This document shows positions 28,691-42,029 of a stretch of DNA of 64,000 nucleotides, piece by piece. The first letter of the stretch is position 1, and each line of letters starts with the position of its first letter. Position numbers and translations under genes: made by a program. Below the pieces are notes generated by a model, which did no database searches, was not told the DNA's origin, and worked only from the letters and a program-made list of their open reading frames with translations. Source of the stretch: Acidimicrobiia bacterium. GTDB taxonomy: Bacteria > Actinomycetota > Acidimicrobiia > Spongiisociales > JAENVV01. The DNA lies in contig JAENVV010000313.1 of assembly GCA_016650365.1 (NCBI GenBank), positions 3,786 to 67,785 of the forward strand, written 5' to 3'.

Positions 28691-30781
28691 CTACTCGCCG
28701 CGAACCTTGGCAACGATCTCCTTGGCAATTCCGTCTGGAACATCCTGATAGGAGTGGAACTGCATGGAGTAGTTGGCGCGACCCTGCGTCTTGGAGCGGA
28801 GGTCCGATACGTAGCCGAACATCTCGGCGAGCGGGACCATCGCCCGAACCACCCGGGCTGCCCCACGATGGCCCATCTCCTCGATCTTGCCGCGACGTGA
28901 GGAAAGGTCACCGATGACATCACCCATGTAATCCTCAGGCGTGGTCACTTCGACTTCCATGATCGGTTCAAGCAGCTTCACGCCGGCCTGGCGGGCGGCT
29001 TCCTGGAAACCCATCGAACCGGCCAACCGGAACGCCATCTCGGAAGAGTCAACGTCGTGGTACGAACCGTCGGTAAGGATGGCCCGAATATCAACCATCG
29101 GATAACCGGCAAGGACGCCTTGTTCCATGGCGCCACGGATACCGAAGTCGACCGAAGGGATATATTCTTTCGGGACGTTGCCACCCTTGATCGAGTCGAC
29201 AAATTCGTAGCCACCACCTGGCTCAGCCGGCTCAAGGCTGATGATGATGTCCGCGAACTGGCCTTTTCCACCGGTCTGCTTCTTATGGGTGTAGCGCACC
29301 TTCGTGACCGACTTTTTAATCGTTTCGCGGTAGGCGACCTGCGGGCGACCAACATTGGCCTCCACCCGGAACTCGCGAACCAGCCGATCAACCAGAATAT
29401 CTAGATGCAATTCGCCCATCCCGGCGATGATGGTTTGACCCGTTTCTTCGTCGGTGTTCACCCGGAAGGTTGGATCCTCTTCGGCCAACCGCTGTAAGGC
29501 GTCACCGAGCTTGTCCGAATCAACCTTGGTTTTCGGCTCGATGGCCACCGAGATAACCGGTTCGGGGAACGTCATCGATTCGAGCTGGATCGGAGAACTC
29601 GGGTCGGCCAGGGTATCGCCGGTCGTGGTCTGCTTCAGGCCGACGGCGGCGACGATGTCACCCGTAAAAATATCGCTGATCTCTTCACGGGCGTTGGCAT
29701 GCATCCGCAGCAAACGCCCCAGGCGTTCCTTCTTCCCGGTGGAGGTATTCACGATCGAATCGCCCTGGGACATGTGGCCGGAGTAGACCCGGAAGTATGT
29801 CAACTTGCCGACGTGCGGATCAGACTGAATTTTGAAAGCGAGAGCCGAGAACGGCTCGTCATCGGTCGCCTTGCGCTCAATGGTCACATCTTCGCTGCCT
29901 GGCCGGAAGCCTTCGACGGGCGGCAAGTCAGACGGGGCCGGGAGATATCGAACAATGGCATTGAGCAGAAGCTGGACACCTTTGTTCTTGAACGCCGAAC
30001 CCGTGAACACGGCCGTGAAGAGCTGCTCGATAACTGCATGGCGAACCGCCGCGTGAATCTCATCGGTCGTCAGTGACTCAGGGTCTTCAAGGTATTTGTC
30101 CAAAAGAGTTTCATTGGTCTCGGCGACCGCTTCGAGCAGCAGGTGACGATATTCGGCCGCCTGGGCAGCCATATCATCGGGTATTGGACCGGTCGTATAT
30201 TCCTTGCCGTCGTCATCAAGCCAAAAATGGGCTTCCATCGTGACCAGGTCGACGATGCCATGGAAGCCAGCTTCCTTTCCGATGGGAAGCTGCATGACGA
30301 CTGGCTGGGCTCCGAGGCGCTCGCGGATCGAGTCGACGCCGGCGAAGAAGTCGGCACCGGTGCGGTCGAGTTTGTTGATGAAGCACATGCGCGGCACGTT
30401 GTATTTGTCGGCCTGGCGCCAGACGGTCTCAGACTGTGGCTCTACACCGGCGACCCCATCAAAAACGGCAACCGCCCCATCGAGCACCCGCAACGAACGC
30501 TCCACCTCAACGGTGAAGTCCACGTGACCGGGCGTGTCGATGATGTTGATCGTGTGGCCATCCCACTTGCAGGTCGTGGCCGCCGAAGTGATGGTGATAC
30601 CGCGTTCTTGCTCCTGCTCCATCCAGTCCATGGTGGCACCGCCATCGTGGACCTCGCCGATCTTGTAGGTACGGCCGGTGTAATAGAGAATACGTTCGGT
30701 GAGCGTCGTTTTACCGGCATCGATGTGAGCCATGATGCCGATATTGCGGATCTTGTTCAGTGGTTCGCTGCGCGTTGCCAC
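28691..30781 (-). CDS. fusA: elongation factor G
   Basis: 696 aa with GTPase motifs AHIDAGKTT and [11 protein letters not shown] start with an AAGGA Shine-Dalgarno. Confidence 0.95.
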
Positions 30782-30870
30782 GATATGTCCTTCGTTGTCA
30801 ATGACCGCCGACCAGGCCGGAGATCGCGGATTCTTTCTCGTTAGACAACCGGGCCTTGCCGGGGGTCTGG

Positions 30871-30938
30871 CTACCAGCGGTAGGGGCCCTACCAGCGGTA
30901 GCGGCTGCTACCAGCGGTAATGCCCACTACCAGCGGTA
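30871..30938 (-). repeat. 4-copy tandem array of the 12-mer CTACCAGCGGTA (18-19 bp period) from the rpsG stop into the rpsG-fusA spacer
   Basis: Copies at 30871, 30889, 30908 and 30927. The last copy encodes the YRW-stop of S7, and each RNA copy UACCGCUGGUAG contains UAG. Confidence 0.8.
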
Positions 30939-31397
30939 GTGGGCAAATGCCTTGTTGGATTCAGCCATCTTGTGGATGTCTTCACGGCGCTTCATCGCAG
31001 AACCCGTCCGGTTGCTGGCGTCCATGATTTCGTTTGCAAGGCGCTCAGACATGGTTTTTTCTTTTCGTCGACGGGAATAGTCGACGAGCCAGCGAATGGC
31101 CAGCGTGTTGGCGCGACGGGGGGGAACCTCAACCGGCACCTGGTAGGTGGATCCACCGACACGACGTGAGCGAACCTCGAGGTGCGGCTTCAGATTGTCG
31201 ATGGCTCGTTTGAGCACCACACTGGGGTCTTGCCCCGAGCGTCGCTCAACAGTTTCAAGCGCCGTGTACACGATGGCTCGTGCGGTTTCTTTCTTACCGG
31301 CCAGCAAGACCTTGTTCGTAAGCTGACTGACGGCCAACGAGCCGTAGACGGGATCTGGTTCGATATGACGTTTCTGGGCGGGTCCGCGACGTGCCAT
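30927..31397 (-). CDS. rpsG: 30S ribosomal protein S7
   Basis: Starts at internal [18 protein letters not shown] (156 aa) and overlaps the rpsL stop. The ORF-track extension is spurious. Confidence 0.95.
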
Positions 31398-31399
31398 GG

Positions 31400-31768
31400 T
31401 TAACCCTTCTTCGTTCCATAGCGGGAACGGGCTTGCTTGCGGCCTTGAACCGAACCGGTATCGAGGGCACCACGAATGACTTTGTAGCGAACACCAGGAA
31501 GGTCCTTTACACGACCACCACGAACCAGGACGATGCTGTGCTCCTGGAGGTTGTGACCTTCGCCGGGGATATAGGCGGTTACTTCGACGCCCGAGGTGAG
31601 GCGCACACGGCAAACCTTACGAATGGCGGAGTTCGGCTTCTTGGGGGTGACGGCGTATACACGCGTGCATACCCCGCGACGCTGCGGTGCCCCTTTGAGG
31701 CCCGGCGTCTTTTCCTTCTTCGACTTTGCCTGTCGGCCCTGTCGAACCAACTGGTTAATCGTCGGCAT
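31400..31768 (-). CDS. rpsL: 30S ribosomal protein S12
   Basis: Begins [13 protein letters not shown], 122 aa. Confidence 0.95.
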
Positions 31769-32105
31769 TCTGCTCCCTTATCAAAGGCCCCTGAATCGAG
31801 GCTTACGCGTATAGCGGTCCGTTGGAACGGACCTTTTCAAGACCTACCACACCCACCATGTATTCCAAGGAGGGACATACGAGGGCAGGTTTCAAAAACC
31901 TGAGTCGCCAGTATATGGCCACCAGGTGCTGGCGCCAAAACGGCAGCACCTGCCAAGTCGAACGAAATCCGACCGACCGTTTGCGAAGTGTACGCCCATC
32001 TGACGTTTCCGGTCAACCCGGGACTCCGTCCTCATTGAGAGCTAGGCCATTCGGACCTACCGGATGGCGCCTCCATGAGCGAGAATCTAAGTGAGAAAGG
32101 ACATA

Positions 32106-32336
32106 ATGCCCGGCACGTTGCAGAGCGTCTGGTCGGTATTCACACACGATGGCCGTTCTCGCCGACGGGTTGACGGTAGTCATGTCGACTGCCCGTACGA
32201 CGGTCGAGTCTCGGTGGATCGATGCCTGAGTTGTGATCGACTACGTGACATCAAGCTCGATGGCAAGTCAGGTTGGGTGGCATGCGGTGCACCGGATCCA
32301 AACGATCCGTTGTTGCTCTATCGGCCGCTGTACTGA
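32106..32336 (+). CDS. hypothetical small Cys-rich protein
   Basis: 76 aa from an ATG preceded by AAAGGA-N5. Contains C-P-Y-D...C-L-S-C...C. No recognised family, and it lies in the unusually long rpsL upstream region. Confidence 0.3.
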   Translation: MPGTLQSVWSVFTHDGRSRRRVDGSHVDCPYDGRVSVDRCLSCDRLRDIKLDGKSGWVACGAPDPNDPLLLYRPLY

Positions 32337-32399
32337 CATATCGTCCGCCGCCCTGGCAGGCGACTGCCGGGCGACCAGGCACTGCTACCGTCCCGGCCG

Positions 32400-32996
32400 A
32401 TGTTCATTTCCCTCGCCCAGCCCAGGATGACGGTTCGGTTGCTCCGCCTGCTGGTCGGTCTGTCGATCTATGGTATCGGGATCGGCCTCATGAACCAGTC
32501 GGGTCTGGGAGTGCCTCCCTGGGACGTCCTTCATCAGGGCCTCGCCAAACACCTGGGCGGCACCATCGGTCTCTGGTCAATCCTGGTTGGTCTGGTCGTG
32601 ATGATCCCGTGGATTCCGCTCCGCCAACCATTTGGAATTGGAACAATTCTCAATGCCCTCATCATCGGCACCATGATCGATCTGACGATTGGCCGGGTTC
32701 CCGTCGCTGACACGCTCACTACAGCCTGGGTGTTTCTGTTGGGAGGTGTCCTGGCGATCGGGGTAACCTCCGGCCTGTACATCGGGGCAAATCTCGGACC
32801 GGGACCACGCGACGGCTTGATGACCGGCATTGCCAAGCGTGGCCCCTCAATCCGGTTGGTTCGGTCCCTGCTCGAAGTGGCCGTGCTCATAATGGGCATC
32901 ATCCTCGGGGGCACTTTCGGCGTTGGTACGATCGTGTTCGCGTTCTCGATCGGCCCGTTGATTCACTACTTCCTGCCTCGCCTCACCCTCCGGTAG
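32400..32996 (+). CDS. YczE/YitT-like integral membrane protein
   Basis: 198 aa, predicted 6 TM segments, with a [11 protein letters not shown] motif. The family assignment is from memory of YczE-like proteins. Confidence 0.45.
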
Positions 32997-33048
32997 AGCA
33001 CCTTCGCCAATATCCACATCCCGCCCTGCCTATCCTGACAAGGGTCAC

Positions 33049-34368
33049 ATGCCTCGATCATCATGCAGTTTCTGCGGAAAATCTGAATCCGAAGTCCGCC
33101 AGATCGTGGCGGGACCCGATCGGGTAGGCGTGTGCAATGAGTGTGTGGTCTTGTTCGGTGACATCACAAAGGAAGAGTTCGCCGGCGGGGTCCTCGTCTC
33201 TGGCATCGGCGAACTCGTAACCAACGACCCGCTCGTGCCCGGATTACTCGGGGTCCTCGAACACGCCGCGCTAGCCGTGGTCCATGGGGTGGTCGCCTGG
33301 GCGGGACCGGCAGACTCTGTCCCTGAACGCTGGCGTGACTTGCCGACGCTCGACGTGGAGGGACGGGCGGTCATCCCCGGATTTGTCGACGCCCACACCC
33401 ACGCCATTTTCGGTGGTGACACAGCCGATGACTACGCCGACCAGTTGGCCATGTTCGCCGACCCCCCCATGACAGATCTCGGCGCCATTGTCAGGGCCAC
33501 GAGCGCCACCAGTGACGACCACCTTCTTCGTGAGACCAGCGACCGGCTGGAACGGATGTTGCGCATGGGGACCACCACGGTCGAGGTCAAGTCCGGCTTT
33601 GGTATGACGACGATCGGCGAACGCAGGCTCTTGGAGGTGCTCAACCGGGTGGCCGATCAGCACCTCATCGACGTTGTGCCCACACTTTTCTTTCGAGGGA
33701 TCCCGAGCCATGTGGGGCGGTCCGACCATATCCAGACGATCACCGAAGAGACACTTGCCATCTGCGCCCCCCTGGCCACCTACTGTGACGTCTACTGCGA
33801 CGAGACAGGTTTTTCACCTGAGGAGGCCCAGGTGATTCTCGACGCAGCCGCTTCTCACGGTCTACCCGCCCGGGTTCACGCTCAGCGGTTCGGGGCTGAC
33901 GAAAGCGTCATGGTTGCCGTATCGGCGCGGGCAGTGAGCGCCGATCATCTTGATCACGTGACCCGCTCCGAGGCCGGCCGGCTCGCTGAGTCAGGCACCG
34001 TGGCCGTTCTTTTGCCGGGTTCATCATTTGGTATTCGATCGGGCCATGCCCCGGCCAGGATGTTGTGGGAGTCGGGTGTTACCGTAGCGCTTGGCACCGA
34101 CTGCGGCCCGGAAAGCGCCGCCGTCGAGTCCATGCAGTTCGTGGTGGCCCTCGCCAGTGTTGAGATGGGCCTTACTCCGGCCCAGGCTGTGTGGTCGGCC
34201 ACCCGGGGCGGTGCCCTGGCGTTGCAGGAACCGGAAAAGGGCTGGCTCGGTCGGGGGGCGGTTGGCGACTTTGTCGTCCTCGATGCCCCGCGCGCCAACC
34301 ACCTCGTAGCGAGACCCGGCAACAACCTCGCCTGGCACGTCTTCAAAGACGGCCACACCGTCTCCTGA
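33049..34368 (+). CDS. ClpX-type C4 zinc-finger domain fused to imidazolonepropionase-like amidohydrolase
   Basis: The N-terminus [28 protein letters not shown] matches the ClpX N-domain zinc ribbon (CSFCGKSQHEVRKLIAGP..ICDECV). The remainder carries HutI-like motifs [41 protein letters not shown] and LGTDCGP. ATG start with an AAGGG Shine-Dalgarno. Confidence 0.7.
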
Positions 34369-34372
34369 GATC

Positions 34373-34437
34373 GAACCCAGGGTTGAACCCTGGGTTCCTA
34401 CGCCCGAAAACGGGAGCTGGGGCCCCAGGAACGGGTC
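34373..34437. repeat. REP-like compound palindromic element, copy A
   Basis: 25-nt palindrome GAACCCAGGGTT-G-AACCCTGGGTTC, then CCCGAAAACGGG and CTGGGGCCCCAG dyads. Near-identical copies occur at 62.9 kb. Confidence 0.7.
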
Positions 34438-34444
34438 AACAAAT

Positions 34445-34470
34445 CAGGGCCCCGCCGAAGCGGGGCCCTG
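34445..34470 (-). terminator. intrinsic terminator downstream of rpoC
   Basis: 11-bp stem CAGGGCCCCGC / GCGGGGCCCTG with loop CGAA, 20 nt after the rpoC stop. Followed on the minus strand by AUUUGUUG. Confidence 0.55.
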
Positions 34471-34489
34471 ATCCACTAAGTTGGCTCGC

Positions 34490-38398
<3,909 letters not shown>

Positions 38399-38415
38399 GT
38401 TTCCTCCAGCGCTCG

Positions 38416-41400
38416 CTATGACTCGCGTCGTTCGGGACGGGACAGATCAATGCCGAGTGACTCGGCGGTGCGGAACGCGTCTTCATCGAGTTCACGAAGC
38501 TGCACTTCCTCACCGGCCGAGAGCATCTCCACGTTCAAGCAGAGACTCTGCATTTCTTTGATCAGCACCTTGAATGACTCCGGTATACCGGGTTCGGGGA
38601 TGTTCTCCCCTTTGACGATGGCCTCGTAGACCTTGACACGGCCCTGCACATCATCGGATTTGATGGTGAGTACTTCCTGCAACGCATAGGCAGCGCCATA
38701 TGCTTCGAGGGCCCACACTTCCATCTCACCGAATCTCTGGCCACCGAACTGTGCTTTACCACCGAGCGGCTGCTGGGTGATCATCGAGTACGGGCCAGTT
38801 GAACGAGCGTGAATCTTCTCATCAACCAGATGGACCAGCTTGAGGATATAGATGTATCCAACGGTGATCGGCGTGTCGAATTGCTCGCCGGTCCGACCGT
38901 CGAACAACATCGCCTTGCCGGACTCACCGATGAGCTGGGTACCGTCACGATTGACCTTCGAATGGCTCAGGACCTCGGCAATTTCACCTTCGCGGGCCCC
39001 GTCGAAGACGGGAGTCGCAATCTTGGTCCACGGCCCGGCGCCATCCTTGGCAGGACTGAAGTCCATGTACTTTTCGAGTGGTTCCCAACCGACGGCAGCC
39101 GCCCAACCAAGGTGCGTCTCAAGGACCTGACCCAGGTTCATTCGGGACGGCACACCGAGCGGCGACAAAATGATGTCGACCGGTGTCCCGTCTTCCATGA
39201 ACGGCATGTCTTCTTCAGGCAAGATCTTGGAGATAACGCCCTTGTTGCCGTGGCGACCGGCCAGCTTGTCTCCTTCGGAGATCTTGCGCTGGCTGGCGAC
39301 GTACACCCGGACCAGTTCGTTGACCCCGGGAGGCAAGTCGTAACCCTCGTCGCGTTTGAAGACCTTCACGTCGATGACCTTGCCGGCTTCACCGTGAGGC
39401 ACCTTCAGTGATGTGTCACGAACTTCCCGAGCCTTCTCACCGAAAATAGCTCGCAGGAGACGCTCTTCAGGCGTGAGCTCGGTCTCGCCTTTGGGAGTGA
39501 CCTTGCCGACCAGATAGTCGCCAGGACCGACTTCGGCCCCGACCCGGATGATCCCGTTTTCGTCAAGGTCCATGAGGGCCTCTTCGGCAACGTTCGGAAT
39601 GTCACGGGTGATTTCCTCGGCGCCCAGTTTCGTGTCCCTGGCGTCGACCTCATGCTCCTCGATGTGAATCGAGGTGAGGACATCGTCTTTGACCAGACGT
39701 TCGCTCAAGATGATGGCGTCTTCGTAGTTGTAGCCCTTCCATGGCATGAACGCTACAAGCAGGTTACGTCCCAGCGCGAGTTCGCCCTGATCGGTCGAAG
39801 GGCCATCGGCCAGAACGGTGCCGACCGTGATCTTGTCGCCTTCTTTGGCGAGAGGCTTCTGGTTGACGCAGGTGCCCTGGTTGGAGCGCTCGAACTTCTT
39901 CAGAGGGAAGGTGTGCTTTTTGTTGGTCCCTGTTTCCTTGACGACGATTTCGTCACCGGTGATCTCAACGACTTCTCCATCAACCGGCGAAACGATCATG
40001 TCGCCCGAATCCTGGGCAGCCCGCTGTTCAACGCCGGTGCCGATCAATGGGGCATCGGCCCGAAGGAGTGGAACCGCCTGACGCTGCATGTTCGAACCCA
40101 TCAAGGCCCGGTTGGCATCGTCGTGCTCAAGGAACGGAATGAGAGCCGTGGAAACCGAAACCATCTGCTTCGGAGATACGTCCATGTAATCGACGTTCTC
40201 GGCCAAGACGTAGTCGACCTCGCCGCCAGCACGACGGACCAGAACACGCTCATTCGCAAAGGCGAACTTGTCGGTCAGTGGTGCGTTGGCCTGAGCGATG
40301 ACGTATCGCTCTTCCTCGGTGGCCGTGAGGTAATCGACCTTCGTGGTCACCGTTCCCATTTCGACCTTACGGTAAGGCGTTTCAATGAATCCAAACCGGT
40401 TCACTCTGGCGTAGGACGATAGAGAACCGATCAGGCCAATGTTGGGTCCTTCCGGCGTTTCAATCGGGCACATACGACCGTAATGAGACGGATGGACGTC
40501 ACGGACCTCAAACCCGGCCCGCTCACGTGACAGACCGCCAGGGCCGAGCGCCGAAAGACGACGACGATGGGTGAGACCGGCGAGGGGGTTCGGTTGGTCC
40601 ATGAACTGGCTCAACTGGCTGGTTCCGAAGAACTCCTTGATGGCCGCCGTGACCGGCCGGATGTTGATGAGGGACTGCGGCGTGATCGCCTCAGGATCCT
40701 GCGTCGTCATCCGCTCCCGAACCACCCGCTCCAATCGAGTCAAGCCGACCCGAATCTGGTTCTGGATGAGTTCGCCGACCGTACGAATACGGCGGTTACC
40801 GAAGTGGTCGATGTCATCGGTCTGGACCGGGACTTCCACCCCGGCACTTGTCATATACATGGCGTCGCCGGCGTGAAGGGCAACGAGATATCGAATGGTG
40901 TCAAGGATGTCATCGTCGGAGAGCAGTTGCTGGCCCTCCAGGCGATAGTTCTCCGGGACCTCGTGGCCAAACCGGGTGTTCACCTTGTAGCGACCGACCC
41001 TGGTGAGGTCGTAGCGCTTCGTGTTGCGGAACAACGTCTGGATCAACCCGCGGGCCGAGTCGACCGTGGTTGGCTCACCAGGACGCAGCTTTCGGTACAG
41101 ATCGAGGAGAGCTTCCTCTTTGGACTGGGCTGGGTCCTTGTCAATGGTGGCCTGAATCGCCGGGGCACCCCTGAACAATCCGAGGATCTCTTCGTCGGTC
41201 TCGGCGATACCAAGAGCCTTGAGGAAGCCGGTGATGTACTGGCGGCGTTTGCGGTCAACCCGGACGCCGATCGTTCCACGCTTGTCGGTGTCGAACTCCA
41301 ACCAGGCTCCCCGGCCGGGGATGACCTTGGATGCGTAGATCAGTGCGTCAGAGGTTTTGTCGCGAGTGACATCGAAGTAGACGCCAGGCGAACGCACCAA

Positions 41401-41793
41401 CTGGGACACAACGACTCGTTCGGTGCCGTTGATGATGAAGACACCGTTGTCGGTCATCATCGGGAAATCGCCAAGGAAGACTTGCTGTTCCTTGATCTCG
41501 CCGGTTTCCTTGTTGACAAAGCGGGCCGTCACATGAAGCGGGCGCGAATAGTTCTCGTCGCGTTCCTTGGCCTCTTCAATGGTGCGAGATGGATCGCCGA
41601 AACGATGGTCTACGAGTTCGAGGGCGAGGCTGCCGGTGAAATCTTCAATCGGCGAAATTTCGTCGAAGATCTCCTGAAGACCTTCCTCAAGAAACCATCG
41701 GAATGATTCGTGCTGAACGGCTAATAGATCAGGCAGGGGTAGTACTTCAGGGATCTTTGCGAACGATAAACGTTCAGCGACGCGCGAGACCAA
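38416..41793 (-). CDS. rpoB: DNA-directed RNA polymerase subunit beta
   Basis: RpoB sequence. The start is assigned to a TTG (L)[16 protein letters not shown] preceded by GGAGGA-N6; the ORF-track start at 41862 is a GTG further upstream. Confidence 0.93.
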
Positions 41794-42029
41794 CGGCGTT
41801 CCTCCTCGAAAAGGGGTTGTGAGACGACAAGCGAATAGGCAGCTTAGCAAAAGCCAGCGCACCTAGCAAAAGATGAACATGCGCCAATGTCCCGGGGGGA
41901 CGGCTCGACGATTTTGTGGCCGAGTTGTCCTGGAGACCGCTCGAACCGACTTCGTTGTCAGTGGGGGGAATATACCTGTGAATCGATACGAACGTCAAGC
42001 ACCTACGCCCCGACAAGCTGCCGGTGTCG

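What the first reader, a model, noticed from the sequence alone, without database searches (positions are those of the whole stretch)
33049..34368. ClpX-type zinc finger fused to an orphan HutI-like amidohydrolase
Seen in sequence: the first ~45 aa ([34 protein letters not shown]) closely match the C4 zinc-ribbon N-domain of ClpX. ClpX normally precedes an AAA+ unfoldase and mediates dimerisation and adaptor binding. Here the reading frame continues, with an ATG and a good Shine-Dalgarno, directly into a full imidazolonepropionase-like metal-dependent amidohydrolase. No hutH, hutU or hutG is nearby. Inference: an unusual domain architecture. The zinc finger could target the enzyme to ClpP-associated machinery or mediate oligomerisation, or the product could be a degradation-coupled hydrolase.
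Basis: partly seen in the sequence, partly recalled or inferred. Interest (0 to 1): 0.6.

Follow-up and report, generated by a model that had tools for sequence, protein, structure and literature searches.

The report
ClpX-type zinc finger on diverged HutI-like hydrolase
This is a real, conserved gene in uncultured Acidimicrobiia that joins a ClpX-type zinc finger to a histidine-pathway-like metal hydrolase, and this copy has lost its pathway partners and its substrate-binding residues, so it probably acts on a different, unknown compound.

Summary
ORF 33049-34368 (+, 439 aa) carries a ClpX-type C4 zinc finger at residues 5-42 (Pfam 51 bits, cut-off 27). It runs without interruption into a HutI-fold amidohydrolase at residues 48-439.

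The fusion is not an assembly artefact and not a one-off. At least 58 of the 121 closest proteins carry it. In other Acidimicrobiia it is the genuine imidazolonepropionase, placed right after hutH and hutU. In one relative (L012) a complete hutG-hutH-hutU-ZnF-hutI operon sits in the same rpsL-rpoC slot as the window gene.

The window copy belongs to a derived clade, found in eight loci at 68-97% identity. That clade:
- has no hutG, hutH or hutU nearby;
- keeps all five metal-site residues;
- has replaced all five residues that, as I recall, contact the substrate analogue in B. subtilis HutI;
- deviates at 17 of 66 universally conserved HutI positions, against 0-3 for true HutI;
- falls below the NCBIfam hutI cut-off (283 vs 298 bits; canonical relatives score 415-442).

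dN/dS of 0.06-0.12 shows the gene is under selection. It travels with a yczE-like membrane-protein gene and, in most clade loci, a small Cys-rich ORF.

My reading is a re-purposed metal hydrolase with an unknown substrate. The zinc finger is inherited and most likely serves dimerisation or protein interaction. A link to ClpP is untested. This is a new variant of a known kind, of moderate interest.

The parts
33049..34368 (+). Complete ORF (439 aa plus stop): ClpX-type zinc finger fused to a HutI-family amidohydrolase
   Evidence: ORF listing; Pfam and NCBIfam hits; dN/dS 0.06-0.12 across 8 orthologous loci
33040..33044 (+). Shine-Dalgarno-like AAGGG, 4 nt before the ATG
   Evidence: Read directly from the sequence
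33061..33174 (+). ClpX-type C4 zinc-binding domain, residues 5-42. Cys ligands are C6 (33064-33066), C9 (33073-33075), C29 (33133-33135) and C32 (33142-33144)
   Evidence: PF06689 at 51-56 bits vs cut-off 27; PDB ClpX ZBD hits; 60.5% identity to E. coli ClpX ZBD; motif CSFCG..V..AGP..V..C.EC is at least 90% conserved in 58 fused homologues
33175..33189 (+). Short linker, residues 43-47 (EFAGG)
   Evidence: The distance from the last Cys to the IGELVTN strand is 20-24 residues in all fused homologues, and 20 in the 10 proteins with the shortest spacing. Lowest pLDDT block is about 70
33190..34365 (+). HutI-fold amidohydrolase domain, residues 48-439 (beta-sandwich plus TIM barrel)
   Evidence: TIGR01224 at 283 bits, residues 71-436; Foldseek top hits 2GOK, 2G3F, 2BB0, 2Q09, 2OOF
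33394..33402 (+). HxH metal ligands H116 and H118 (B. subtilis H80 and H82)
   Evidence: Alignment mapping; invariant in all 72 aligned sequences
33877..33879 (+). Metal ligand H277 (B. subtilis H249)
33946..33948 (+). Conserved active-site H300 (B. subtilis H272)
34099..34101 (+). Metal ligand D351 (B. subtilis D324)
33421..33423 (+). T125, replacing the universal HutI Arg (B. subtilis R89)
33460..33462 (+). D138, replacing the universal HutI Tyr (B. subtilis Y102). It is immediately followed by a 4-residue deletion that removes the GGGI loop
   Evidence: Asp is fixed in all 11 clade members
33598..33600 (+). F184, replacing the universal HutI Tyr (B. subtilis Y152)
33694..33696 (+). R216, replacing the universal HutI His (B. 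subtilis H185). The motif GAH becomes FFR
   Evidence: Arg is fixed in all 11 clade members
33886..33888 (+). R280 at the position of B. subtilis E252 (Gln in canonical Acidimicrobiia HutI)
34105..34119 (+). GPESA, replacing the universal NPG(T/S)S after the metal-binding Asp (N353G, G355E, S357A)
32400..32996 (+). yczE-like polytopic membrane protein gene, 52 bp upstream on the same strand. It is a conserved partner in every clade locus
   Evidence: NCBIfam NF052291 at 219.9 bits vs cut-off 205; 62-98% aa identity at the same position in L001, L002 and L004-L009
32091..32336 (+). Conserved 81-aa Cys-rich ORF upstream of yczE, possibly part of the same unit
   Evidence: 54-96% aa identity in L004-L009; no Pfam family
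34373..34397 (.). Perfect 12-bp hairpin 5 nt after the stop codon, a possible terminator for the + strand unit
34443..34472 (.). Perfect 13-bp GC-rich hairpin between the convergent genes, probably the rpoC terminator

Best explanation
The ORF is a single functional gene for a two-domain protein: an N-terminal ClpX-type zinc-binding domain (ZBD), a 5-residue linker, and a mononuclear-metal amidohydrolase of the HutI fold.

The fusion arose in an ancestor of several Acidimicrobiia HutI clades. There it is the ordinary imidazolonepropionase, translated immediately after hutU. In the lineage of this window a hut operon once occupied the slot between rpsL and rpoC, as it still does in relative L012. 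hutG, hutH and hutU were lost from that slot. The ZnF-hutI gene stayed, became linked to a yczE-like membrane-protein gene (and, in most clade loci, to a small Cys-rich ORF), and was remodelled.

The metal-binding and catalytic residues H116, H118, H277, H300 and D351 are intact. The residues that hold imidazolone-propionate are replaced: R to T125, Y to D138, GGGI loop deleted, Y to F184, H to R216, Q/E to R280, NPGTS to GPESA. The protein is therefore most likely still a metal-dependent C-N hydrolase, but for a different and so far unidentified small polar substrate. That substrate may be handled together with the YczE membrane protein.

The zinc finger is inherited from the HutI ancestor and is not specific to the new function. 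Its most likely role is the one intrinsic to this fold in ClpX, namely zinc-stabilised dimerisation or protein-protein contact, which would here tie two enzyme subunits together.

Shown: gene integrity, domain identities, distribution, synteny, residue replacements and purifying selection. Inferred: change of substrate, retained catalysis and the zinc finger's role.
For: Domains:
- Pfam, NCBIfam and PDB hits.
- AlphaFold2 model with pLDDT 93.5 whose top matches are the solved HutI structures.

Fusion is widespread:
- 58 of 121 aligned close homologues carry the CxxC...CxxC finger, with a constrained 20-24-residue spacing to the first barrel-domain strand.

Canonical fused copies sit in hut operons:
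- L003 (hutH-x-hutU-ZnF-hutI), L013 and L014.
- L011, where the fused gene is preceded by the hutU C-terminus.
- L012, with hutG-hutH-hutU-ZnF-hutI-u471 between rpsL/MgtC and rpoC. The ZnF start codon overlaps the hutU stop.

Positional descent:
- All eight clade loci have rpsL(-) | yczE, ZnF gene (+). rpoC(-) follows wherever the contig extends that far, which is six of the eight; L006 and L008 end first.
- L006 still has the u471 homologue directly downstream, as in L012.
- In the NJ tree the clade plus the P0017 group is sister to canonical P0011/P0012.

Divergence:
- TIGR01224 scores are 277-292 bits for the clade (window 283) and 241-289 for the P0017 group. Canonical fused and unfused HutI score 415-442. 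The cut-off is 298.
- At 66 columns conserved in 109 reference HutI and identical in the A. tumefaciens and B. subtilis enzymes, references deviate at 0-3. The window protein deviates at 17, the clade at 15-20 and P0011/P0012 at 1-2.
- All five B. subtilis substrate-analogue contact positions are changed, while H80, H82, H249, H272 and D324 equivalents are invariant.

Paralogy precedent:
- In L015 a divergent ZnF copy (P0017) coexists with a canonical unfused hutI in a hutH-hutU-hutI-DUF6198 cluster in the same island.

Selection:
- dN/dS is 0.06-0.12 for both domains, including unsaturated pairs with dS 0.20-0.36.
- The alternative residues D138 and R216 are fixed in all 11 clade members.

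Finger as a general module:
- 5565 representatives, tandem arrays, and fusions to Hsp70, TPR and OTCase.
Against: - No biochemical data exist and the new substrate is not identified.
- The roles of the five contact residues (R89, Y102, Y152, H185, E252) rest on my recollection of Yu et al. 2006 (J Biol Chem 281:36929). The residue identities at those numbers were checked, but the paper could not be read here.
- I could not search the rest of the genome, so hut genes, or a second canonical hutI, may or may not exist elsewhere.
- The dimerisation role of the finger is extrapolated from ClpX and could not be modelled, because only monomer prediction was available.
- The NJ tree is a simple distance tree without support values.
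- YczE has no known function (PMC4944035), so the partner gives no pathway clue.
- The small ORF was not detected in L001.
Confidence: 0.6

Rival explanations
1. It is still the organism's ordinary imidazolonepropionase. hutH, hutU and hutG simply lie elsewhere in the genome, and the substitutions are tolerated or compensated.
For: HutI is by far the best match in sequence and fold. The metal ligands are intact. Two new arginines (R216, R280) could in principle replace the lost R125 and R152 in binding the substrate carboxylate. Public pipelines name relatives 'imidazolonepropionase'.
Against: It fails the curated hutI equivalog cut-off, while all canonical relatives pass by more than 115 bits. 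It deviates at 17 of 66 universal positions, against at most 3 in 109 true HutI. All five analogue-contact positions are changed and the GGGI loop is deleted. The hut genes are gone from the very slot that holds them in L012. In L015 a similarly diverged ZnF copy sits beside a canonical hutI.
Confidence: 0.15
2. The zinc finger links the enzyme to the ClpXP machinery. It could pair with the ClpX N-domain or capture ClpX adaptors, so that enzyme level or activity is coupled to proteolysis.
For: The finger is 60.5% identical to the E. coli ClpX ZBD and keeps its signature motif. The ClpX ZBD is a dimerising, adaptor- and substrate-binding domain (established knowledge of ClpX; PDB 1OVX, 2DS5-2DS8 listed). 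The finger is under purifying selection.
Against: There is no clpX, clpP or adaptor gene next to any of the 16 loci examined that carry the fused gene. The same module occurs in thousands of non-ClpX proteins of many architectures, so it is a generic module. No literature was found on such a role.
Confidence: 0.1
3. It is a decaying relic of the lost hut operon, or a non-catalytic pseudoenzyme kept for a structural or regulatory role.
For: The pathway partners are lost from the locus and many family-invariant residues are replaced.
Against: dN/dS is 0.06-0.12 over both domains. The reading frame is intact in eight loci spanning 68-97% identity. All five metal and catalytic residues are invariant. 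The replacement residues D138 and R216 are themselves fixed. The model is confident and well folded.
Confidence: 0.07
4. The fusion is an artefact: an assembly error or frameshift joined a small zinc-finger gene to a separate amidohydrolase gene.
For: None found. It was considered only because the window is a single assembly.
Against: The same continuous frame occurs in independent MAGs and metagenome assemblies from several sources. The linker length is constrained. No stop or alternative start lies at the junction.
Confidence: 0.01

Closest known systems
Imidazolonepropionase HutI (EC 3.5.2.7; TIGR01224; structures 2BB0/2G3F B. subtilis, 2GOK/2PUZ A. tumefaciens, 2OOF/2Q09 environmental)
   Same: Same two-domain fold (TM 0.81-0.91). 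Same metal site: HxH, His, His, Asp. It clearly descends from a hut-operon hutI.
   Different: It has an added N-terminal ClpX-type zinc finger. It scores below the equivalog cut-off. The substrate-contact residues R89, Y102, Y152, H185 and E/Q252 are replaced, the GGGI loop is deleted and the NPGTS motif is changed. There is no hut context.
Canonical ZnF-HutI fusions of Acidimicrobiia (e.g. P0070 in L003, P0013 in L013, P0012 in L012)
   Same: Same domain architecture and the same finger motif and spacing. L012 occupies the same rpsL-rpoC chromosomal slot.
   Different: Those proteins keep all HutI signature residues, score 415-423 bits on TIGR01224 and follow hutU. The window protein does none of these.
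N-terminal zinc-binding domain of ClpX (PF06689; 1OVX, 2DS5-2DS8)
   Same: Same C4 motif CSFCGK..EV..L/IAGP...IC.ECV, at 60.5% identity to E. coli.
   Different: It is not followed by an AAA+ module. It has one extra residue between the AGP turn and the second Cys pair. Its function in this context is unknown.
Other non-ClpX proteins with ClpX-type fingers (tandem-finger small proteins; 2xZnF-OTCase P0255; Hsp70-Sel1-2xZnF P0132; TPR-5xZnF P0160; cyanobacterial sigma factors, PMC11119718)
   Same: The finger is used as an accessory module at a protein terminus, including on another metabolic enzyme.
   Different: Different partner domains, and usually two or more fingers rather than one. None has been characterised, as far as the literature I could search shows.
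Divergent ZnF-HutI-like group P0017/P0018/P0020
   Same: It is the sister lineage. It also carries the finger, also fails TIGR01224, also keeps the metal ligands and also has lost the contact residues.
   Different: The replacement residues differ (R to Q, Y to N/A/P, H to A/M). The neighbours differ too: MgtC, MBOAT and HAD hydrolase instead of yczE.

Membership tests
zf-C4_ClpX (PF06689) zinc-binding domain | Profile score above the Pfam gathering threshold | tested here: met
   51.0 bits in the whole protein and 56.1 bits for residues 1-50, vs cut-off 27
zf-C4_ClpX (PF06689) zinc-binding domain | Four zinc-ligand cysteines in CxxC...CxxC arrangement | tested here: met
   C6, C9, C29 and C32 are conserved in all 58 fused homologues
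zf-C4_ClpX (PF06689) zinc-binding domain | Zinc binding and constitutive dimer formation | not testable with these tools
   Only monomer structure prediction was available. This needs metal analysis and SEC-MALS
ClpX unfoldase | Zinc-binding domain followed by an AAA+ ATPase module | tested here: not met
   NCBIfam ClpX models match only residues 4-44 (29.5 and 26.2 bits vs cut-offs 359 and 371). The rest is amidohydrolase
Amidohydrolase superfamily (PF01979/PF07969) | Profile score above threshold, TIM-barrel fold and metal ligands | tested here: met
   66.0 and 69.9 bits vs cut-offs 25 and 29.7; fold; HxH, H, H, D present
Imidazolonepropionase HutI (TIGR01224 equivalog) | Score at or above the curated equivalog cut-off of 298.15 bits | tested here: not met
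   Window 283.4 bits and clade 277-292. Canonical relatives score 415-442
Imidazolonepropionase HutI (TIGR01224 equivalog) | HutI fold: beta-sandwich plus TIM barrel with two insertions | tested here: met
   Foldseek top five hits are all HutI, TM 0.81-0.91, E from 1e-37 to 1e-40
Imidazolonepropionase HutI (TIGR01224 equivalog) | Metal ligands His80, His82, His249, Asp324 and His272 (B. subtilis numbering) | tested here: met
   They correspond to H116, H118, H277, D351 and H300
Imidazolonepropionase HutI (TIGR01224 equivalog) | Substrate-analogue contact residues Arg89, Tyr102, Tyr152, His185, Glu/Gln252, and the universal GGGI and NPG(T/S)S motifs | tested here: not met
   The window protein has T125, D138, F184, R216 and R280, the GGGI loop is deleted, and the motif reads GPESA. 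That is 17 of 66 universal columns changed, vs 0-3 in 109 HutI. The residue roles come from my memory of Yu et al. 2006
Imidazolonepropionase HutI (TIGR01224 equivalog) | Genomic association with hutH and hutU (and hutG or hutF) | tested here: not met
   No homologue in the 64-kb window or within about 10 kb (less where a contig ends) in the clade loci. The rest of the genome was not searchable
Imidazolonepropionase HutI (TIGR01224 equivalog) | Hydrolysis of 4-imidazolone-5-propionate to N-formimino-L-glutamate | not testable with these tools
   Requires an enzyme assay
YczE membrane protein family (NF052291), for the neighbouring gene 32400-32996 | Score above the curated cut-off | tested here: met
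   219.9 bits vs cut-off 205

The most novel reading that the evidence does not exclude
The ClpX-type zinc-binding domain on HutI-family enzymes of Acidimicrobiia could be a built-in handle that pairs with the N-domain of ClpX or with its adaptors. The amount of a catabolic enzyme would then be set directly by ClpXP. In the window's clade this handle would have been carried over to a re-purposed hydrolase that, together with the YczE membrane protein and a small Cys-rich protein, processes a nitrogen heterocycle or amide not yet known as a bacterial nutrient.
Probability: 0.08. Interest if true: 0.75.

Novelty: new variant of a known kind. Interest (0 to 1): 0.42.

Why it matters
- It corrects an annotation. 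Close relatives are auto-named imidazolonepropionase, yet this clade and its sister group fail the HutI signature and sit outside hut operons. Metabolic reconstructions of these uncultured Acidimicrobiia should not count this gene as evidence for histidine catabolism.
- It offers a clean natural series for studying how an amidohydrolase changes substrate while keeping its metal site. The series runs from unfused HutI, to ZnF-HutI in a hut operon, to the operon in the rpsL-rpoC slot, to the orphaned and remodelled copy.
- It documents that the ClpX zinc-binding domain is a common accessory module on metabolic enzymes and small proteins. I found no discussion of this role in the literature I could search. 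The HutI fusions, with fused and unfused orthologues in identical operons, are a convenient system for testing what the module does.

Tried and rejected
- The exact-sequence look-up of the window protein found nothing on record.
- An Rfam scan of 31500-34600 for a riboswitch that might name the ligand gave only sub-threshold chance hits.
- The promoter and terminator scans gave nothing decisive.
- Literature searches for ClpX finger plus imidazolonepropionase, zf-C4_ClpX and 'ClpX zinc finger' phrases found no discussion of this fusion.
- The key HutI mechanism paper (Tyagi 2008, PMC3232013) is not held. A search by residue names found nothing relevant.
- A first divergence measure counted deviations at columns conserved among Acidimicrobiia HutI. 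I dropped it because genuine HutI from Agrobacterium and Bacillus deviate just as much (24 and 32). I replaced it with columns that are also identical in those two enzymes.
- The idea that all 'unfused' about-402-aa hits are start-codon miscalls was tested. It is true for P0012. It is false for L016 and L017, where hutI overlaps the hutU stop by 4 nt.
- P0137, a 1445-aa hit to the finger, is a saposin-repeat protein and so a Cys-rich false match.
- The genome-contig scan returned only the clade itself plus one Anaerolineales HutI. It therefore could not show whether clade genomes hold hut genes elsewhere.
- Pfam gave no family for YczE, the small ORF, u471 or the 370-aa hut-operon protein.
Full report
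**1. The observation**

The window holds one uninterrupted ORF at 33049-34368 on the + strand (439 aa). It begins at the first start codon after the upstream stop. AAGGG lies 4 nt before the ATG.

The zinc finger:
- Pfam places a ClpX C4-type zinc finger at residues 5-42. It scores 51.0 bits in the whole protein and 56.1 bits for residues 1-50 alone, against a cut-off of 27.
- The same stretch hits the solved ClpX zinc-binding domains 2DS7, 2DS5 and 1OVX.
- It is 60.5% identical to the E. coli ClpX N-domain over 38 residues.

The rest of the protein:
- It is an amidohydrolase (Amidohydro_1, residues 108-436).
- Its best family match is TIGR01224 hutI, at 283.4 bits over residues 71-436, just under the curated cut-off of 298.15.
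- An AlphaFold2 model built on a 72-sequence alignment is confident (mean pLDDT 93.5; finger 77-88; linker about 70).
- The model's five best matches among solved structures are all imidazolonepropionases (TM 0.81-0.91).

No hutG, hutH or hutU homologue is present anywhere in the 64-kb window.

**2. The fusion is real and common in one bacterial class**

- The homology search returned dozens of 90%-identity clusters with the same Pfam pair, from 98% down to 44% identity. Where they are named, they are 'imidazolonepropionase' from Acidimicrobiia or Actinomycetota MAGs.
- In an alignment of the window protein with the 120 best hits, 58 sequences carry the CxxC...CxxC finger.
- The signature CSFCG..V..AGP..V..C.EC is at least 90% conserved.
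- The distance from the last cysteine to the first strand of the enzyme is held at 20-24 residues.
- Eight independent loci of the window's own clade keep the same continuous frame.

A frameshift or chimeric assembly is excluded for practical purposes.

**3. In other Acidimicrobiia the fused protein is the ordinary HutI**

- Locus L003 (P0070, 47% identity) reads hutH, a 370-aa unknown, hutU, ZnF-hutI.
- L013 reads hutH, hutU, ZnF-hutI with a 1-nt overlap.
- L014 is similar.
- L011 has the hutU C-terminus directly upstream.

These proteins keep every HutI signature and score 415-423 bits on TIGR01224.

Truly unfused HutI also exist in the class. In L016 and L017 hutI overlaps the hutU stop by 4 nt, which leaves no room for a finger. 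These unfused proteins form their own clades in a distance tree.

One 'unfused' database protein, P0012, is a start-codon miscall. The frame upstream reads [35 protein letters not shown]..., and its ATG overlaps the hutU stop.

**4. The window gene is the positional descendant of such a hutI**

L012, the closest canonical relative (57% identity), has this order:

rpsG-rpsL(-), MgtC(-), hutG, hutH, hutU, ZnF-hutI, a 471-aa membrane protein (all +), then rpoC-rpoB(-)

The window and clade loci L001, L002, L004, L005, L007 and L009 have this order:

rpsG-rpsL(-), yczE(+), ZnF-amidohydrolase(+), rpoC-rpoB(-)

- L006 and L008 show the same rpsL, yczE, ZnF gene order, but their contigs end before rpoC.
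- L006 still has the 471-aa membrane protein homologue right after the ZnF gene.
- The distance tree places the window clade (P0001-P0010) next to a second divergent fused group (P0017, P0018, P0020). Both together are sister to canonical P0011/P0012.
- In L015 the divergent P0017 lies in the same island as a complete hutH-hutU-hutI(unfused)-DUF6198 cluster. A diverged ZnF copy can therefore coexist with a canonical HutI.
- L018 confirms the MgtC(-) | ZnF gene, HAD context for that sister group.

**5. The active site has been remodelled but not destroyed**

I mapped the alignment onto B. subtilis numbering.

| B. subtilis HutI | Window protein | State |
|---|---|---|
| H80 | H116 | metal ligand, kept |
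| H82 | H118 | metal ligand, kept |
| H249 | H277 | metal ligand, kept |
| D324 | D351 | metal ligand, kept |
| H272 | H300 | conserved active-site His, kept |
| R89 | T125 | analogue contact, replaced |
| Y102 | D138 | analogue contact, replaced |
| Y152 | F184 | analogue contact, replaced |
| H185 | R216 | analogue contact, replaced |
| E252 (Gln in Acidimicrobiia) | R280 | analogue contact, replaced |

- All five kept residues are invariant in all aligned sequences.
- The 'analogue contact' rows are the five residues that, by my recollection of Yu et al. 2006, contact the substrate analogue. The residue identities at those numbers were confirmed.
- In addition, the GGGI loop is deleted and the NPG(T/S)S motif after the metal-binding Asp reads GPESA.

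I then took the 66 columns that are at least 95% conserved in 109 reference HutI and identical in the A. tumefaciens and B. subtilis enzymes. Deviations at those columns:

| Group | Columns deviating (of 66) |
|---|---|
| Reference HutI (109) | 0-3 (mean 0.6) |
| P0011 / P0012 | 1-2 |
| Window protein | 17 |
| Window clade | 15-20 |
| P0017 group | 14-19 |

Every clade and sister-group member tested scores below the hutI cut-off (241-292 bits).

**6. The gene is under selection**

- Pairwise dN/dS within the clade is 0.06-0.12 for both the finger (codons 1-47) and the enzyme part.
- This includes pairs far from saturation: window-L004 has dS 0.20 and ratio 0.067, and L007-L009 has dS 0.21 and ratio 0.061.
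- Several replacement residues (D138, R216, Y129, F281) are fixed in all 11 clade members.

This pattern fits a new constraint, not decay.

**7. Neighbours**

- A yczE-like membrane-protein gene at 32400-32996 (NF052291, 219.9 bits vs cut-off 205) lies 52 bp upstream on the same strand. It is present in every clade locus.
- An 81-aa Cys-rich ORF at 32091-32336 is conserved in L004-L009 and has no Pfam family.
- No riboswitch was found.
- Two perfect hairpins separate the gene from the convergent rpoC.

**8. What the zinc finger is likely to do**

An exhaustive profile-free search with residues 1-50 found 5565 cluster representatives at E up to 0.001. The best are 90-300-aa proteins with two to four tandem fingers. 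Pfam scans of longer hits show fingers on Hsp70+Sel1, TPR proteins and an aspartate/ornithine carbamoyltransferase. Cyanobacterial sigma factors also carry the domain (PMC11119718).

The module is therefore a general accessory domain, not a marker of Clp proteolysis. Its one well-established intrinsic property, from ClpX biochemistry and the solved domain structures listed, is zinc-stabilised dimerisation and peptide binding. With only a 5-residue linker here, the simplest role is to tie subunits together or to bind a partner.

No clpX, clpP or adaptor gene accompanies the fused gene in any locus examined. A ClpXP link remains possible but unsupported.

**9. Comparison with what is known, and novelty**

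- The protein works like a HutI-fold mononuclear amidohydrolase. It fails three of the defining tests for membership in the imidazolonepropionase equivalog: score, substrate residues and context.
- It contains a true ClpX-type zinc-binding domain but is not a ClpX.
- The fusion exists in public databases under the name imidazolonepropionase. I found no paper that discusses it.
- I rate it a new variant of a known kind. Interest is moderate, because the substrate and the finger's role are unknown and nothing here overturns an established view.

**10. Limits**

- The rest of the genome could not be searched.
- The roles of the contact residues rest on memory of one paper.
- The tree has no support values.
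- No dimer could be modelled.

Noticed in passing
window 32091-32336 (+): An 81-aa Cys-rich ORF (…VDCPYDG…RCLSCD…WVACG…) lies upstream of yczE. It is conserved at 54-96% aa identity in L004-L009 and matches no Pfam family. It is probably a real small gene that belongs to the same unit.
   Followed up: partly
L012 8112-8241: Database protein P0012 (404 aa, 'unfused') was called from an internal ATG. The true ORF includes the ClpX-type finger, and its ATG overlaps the hutU stop codon. Counts of unfused HutI in databases are therefore inflated by start miscalls.
   Followed up: yes
L012 9452-10867; L015 11293-12810; L006 11320-12729: A family of polytopic membrane proteins of about 470-505 aa, with no Pfam hit, directly follows ZnF-hutI or its derivatives. 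In L012 it overlaps ZnF-hutI by 4 nt.
   Followed up: partly
L003 7189-8301; L014 6294-7136: Pro/Ala-rich proteins (370 and 280 aa) sit between hutH and hutU in two Acidimicrobiia hut operons. The L003 protein matched no Pfam family in my scan and the L014 protein has none on record.
   Followed up: no
P0121-P0270; P0132, P0160, P0255, P0264: The ClpX-type zinc finger is abundant outside ClpX. Many 90-300-aa proteins consist of 2-4 tandem fingers. There are also fusions to Hsp70+Sel1, to TPR repeats and to an aspartate/ornithine carbamoyltransferase.
   Followed up: partly
L015 959-6083 and 10001-13526: One rpsL-rpoC island holds both a canonical hutH-hutU-hutI-DUF6198 cluster and a divergent ZnF-HutI-like gene followed by a HAD hydrolase. 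Many genes on this contig are split into pieces, which is typical of long-read indel errors.
   Followed up: partly
window 28691-31768 and 34490-41862 (-): The gene sits in the core transcription/translation region: fusA, rpsG and rpsL on one side, rpoC and rpoB on the other. RpoC is 99.4% identical to that of MAG JAHEDI01 (isolate Ww197), so the window is probably from the same or a very close Acidimicrobiia species.
   Followed up: partly
window 34373-34397 and 34443-34472: Two perfect hairpins (12 and 13 bp) lie in the 121-bp gap between the convergent ZnF gene and rpoC. They are likely terminators. The second gave a sub-threshold Rfam RsmY/SorY hit that is just the hairpin.
   Followed up: partly
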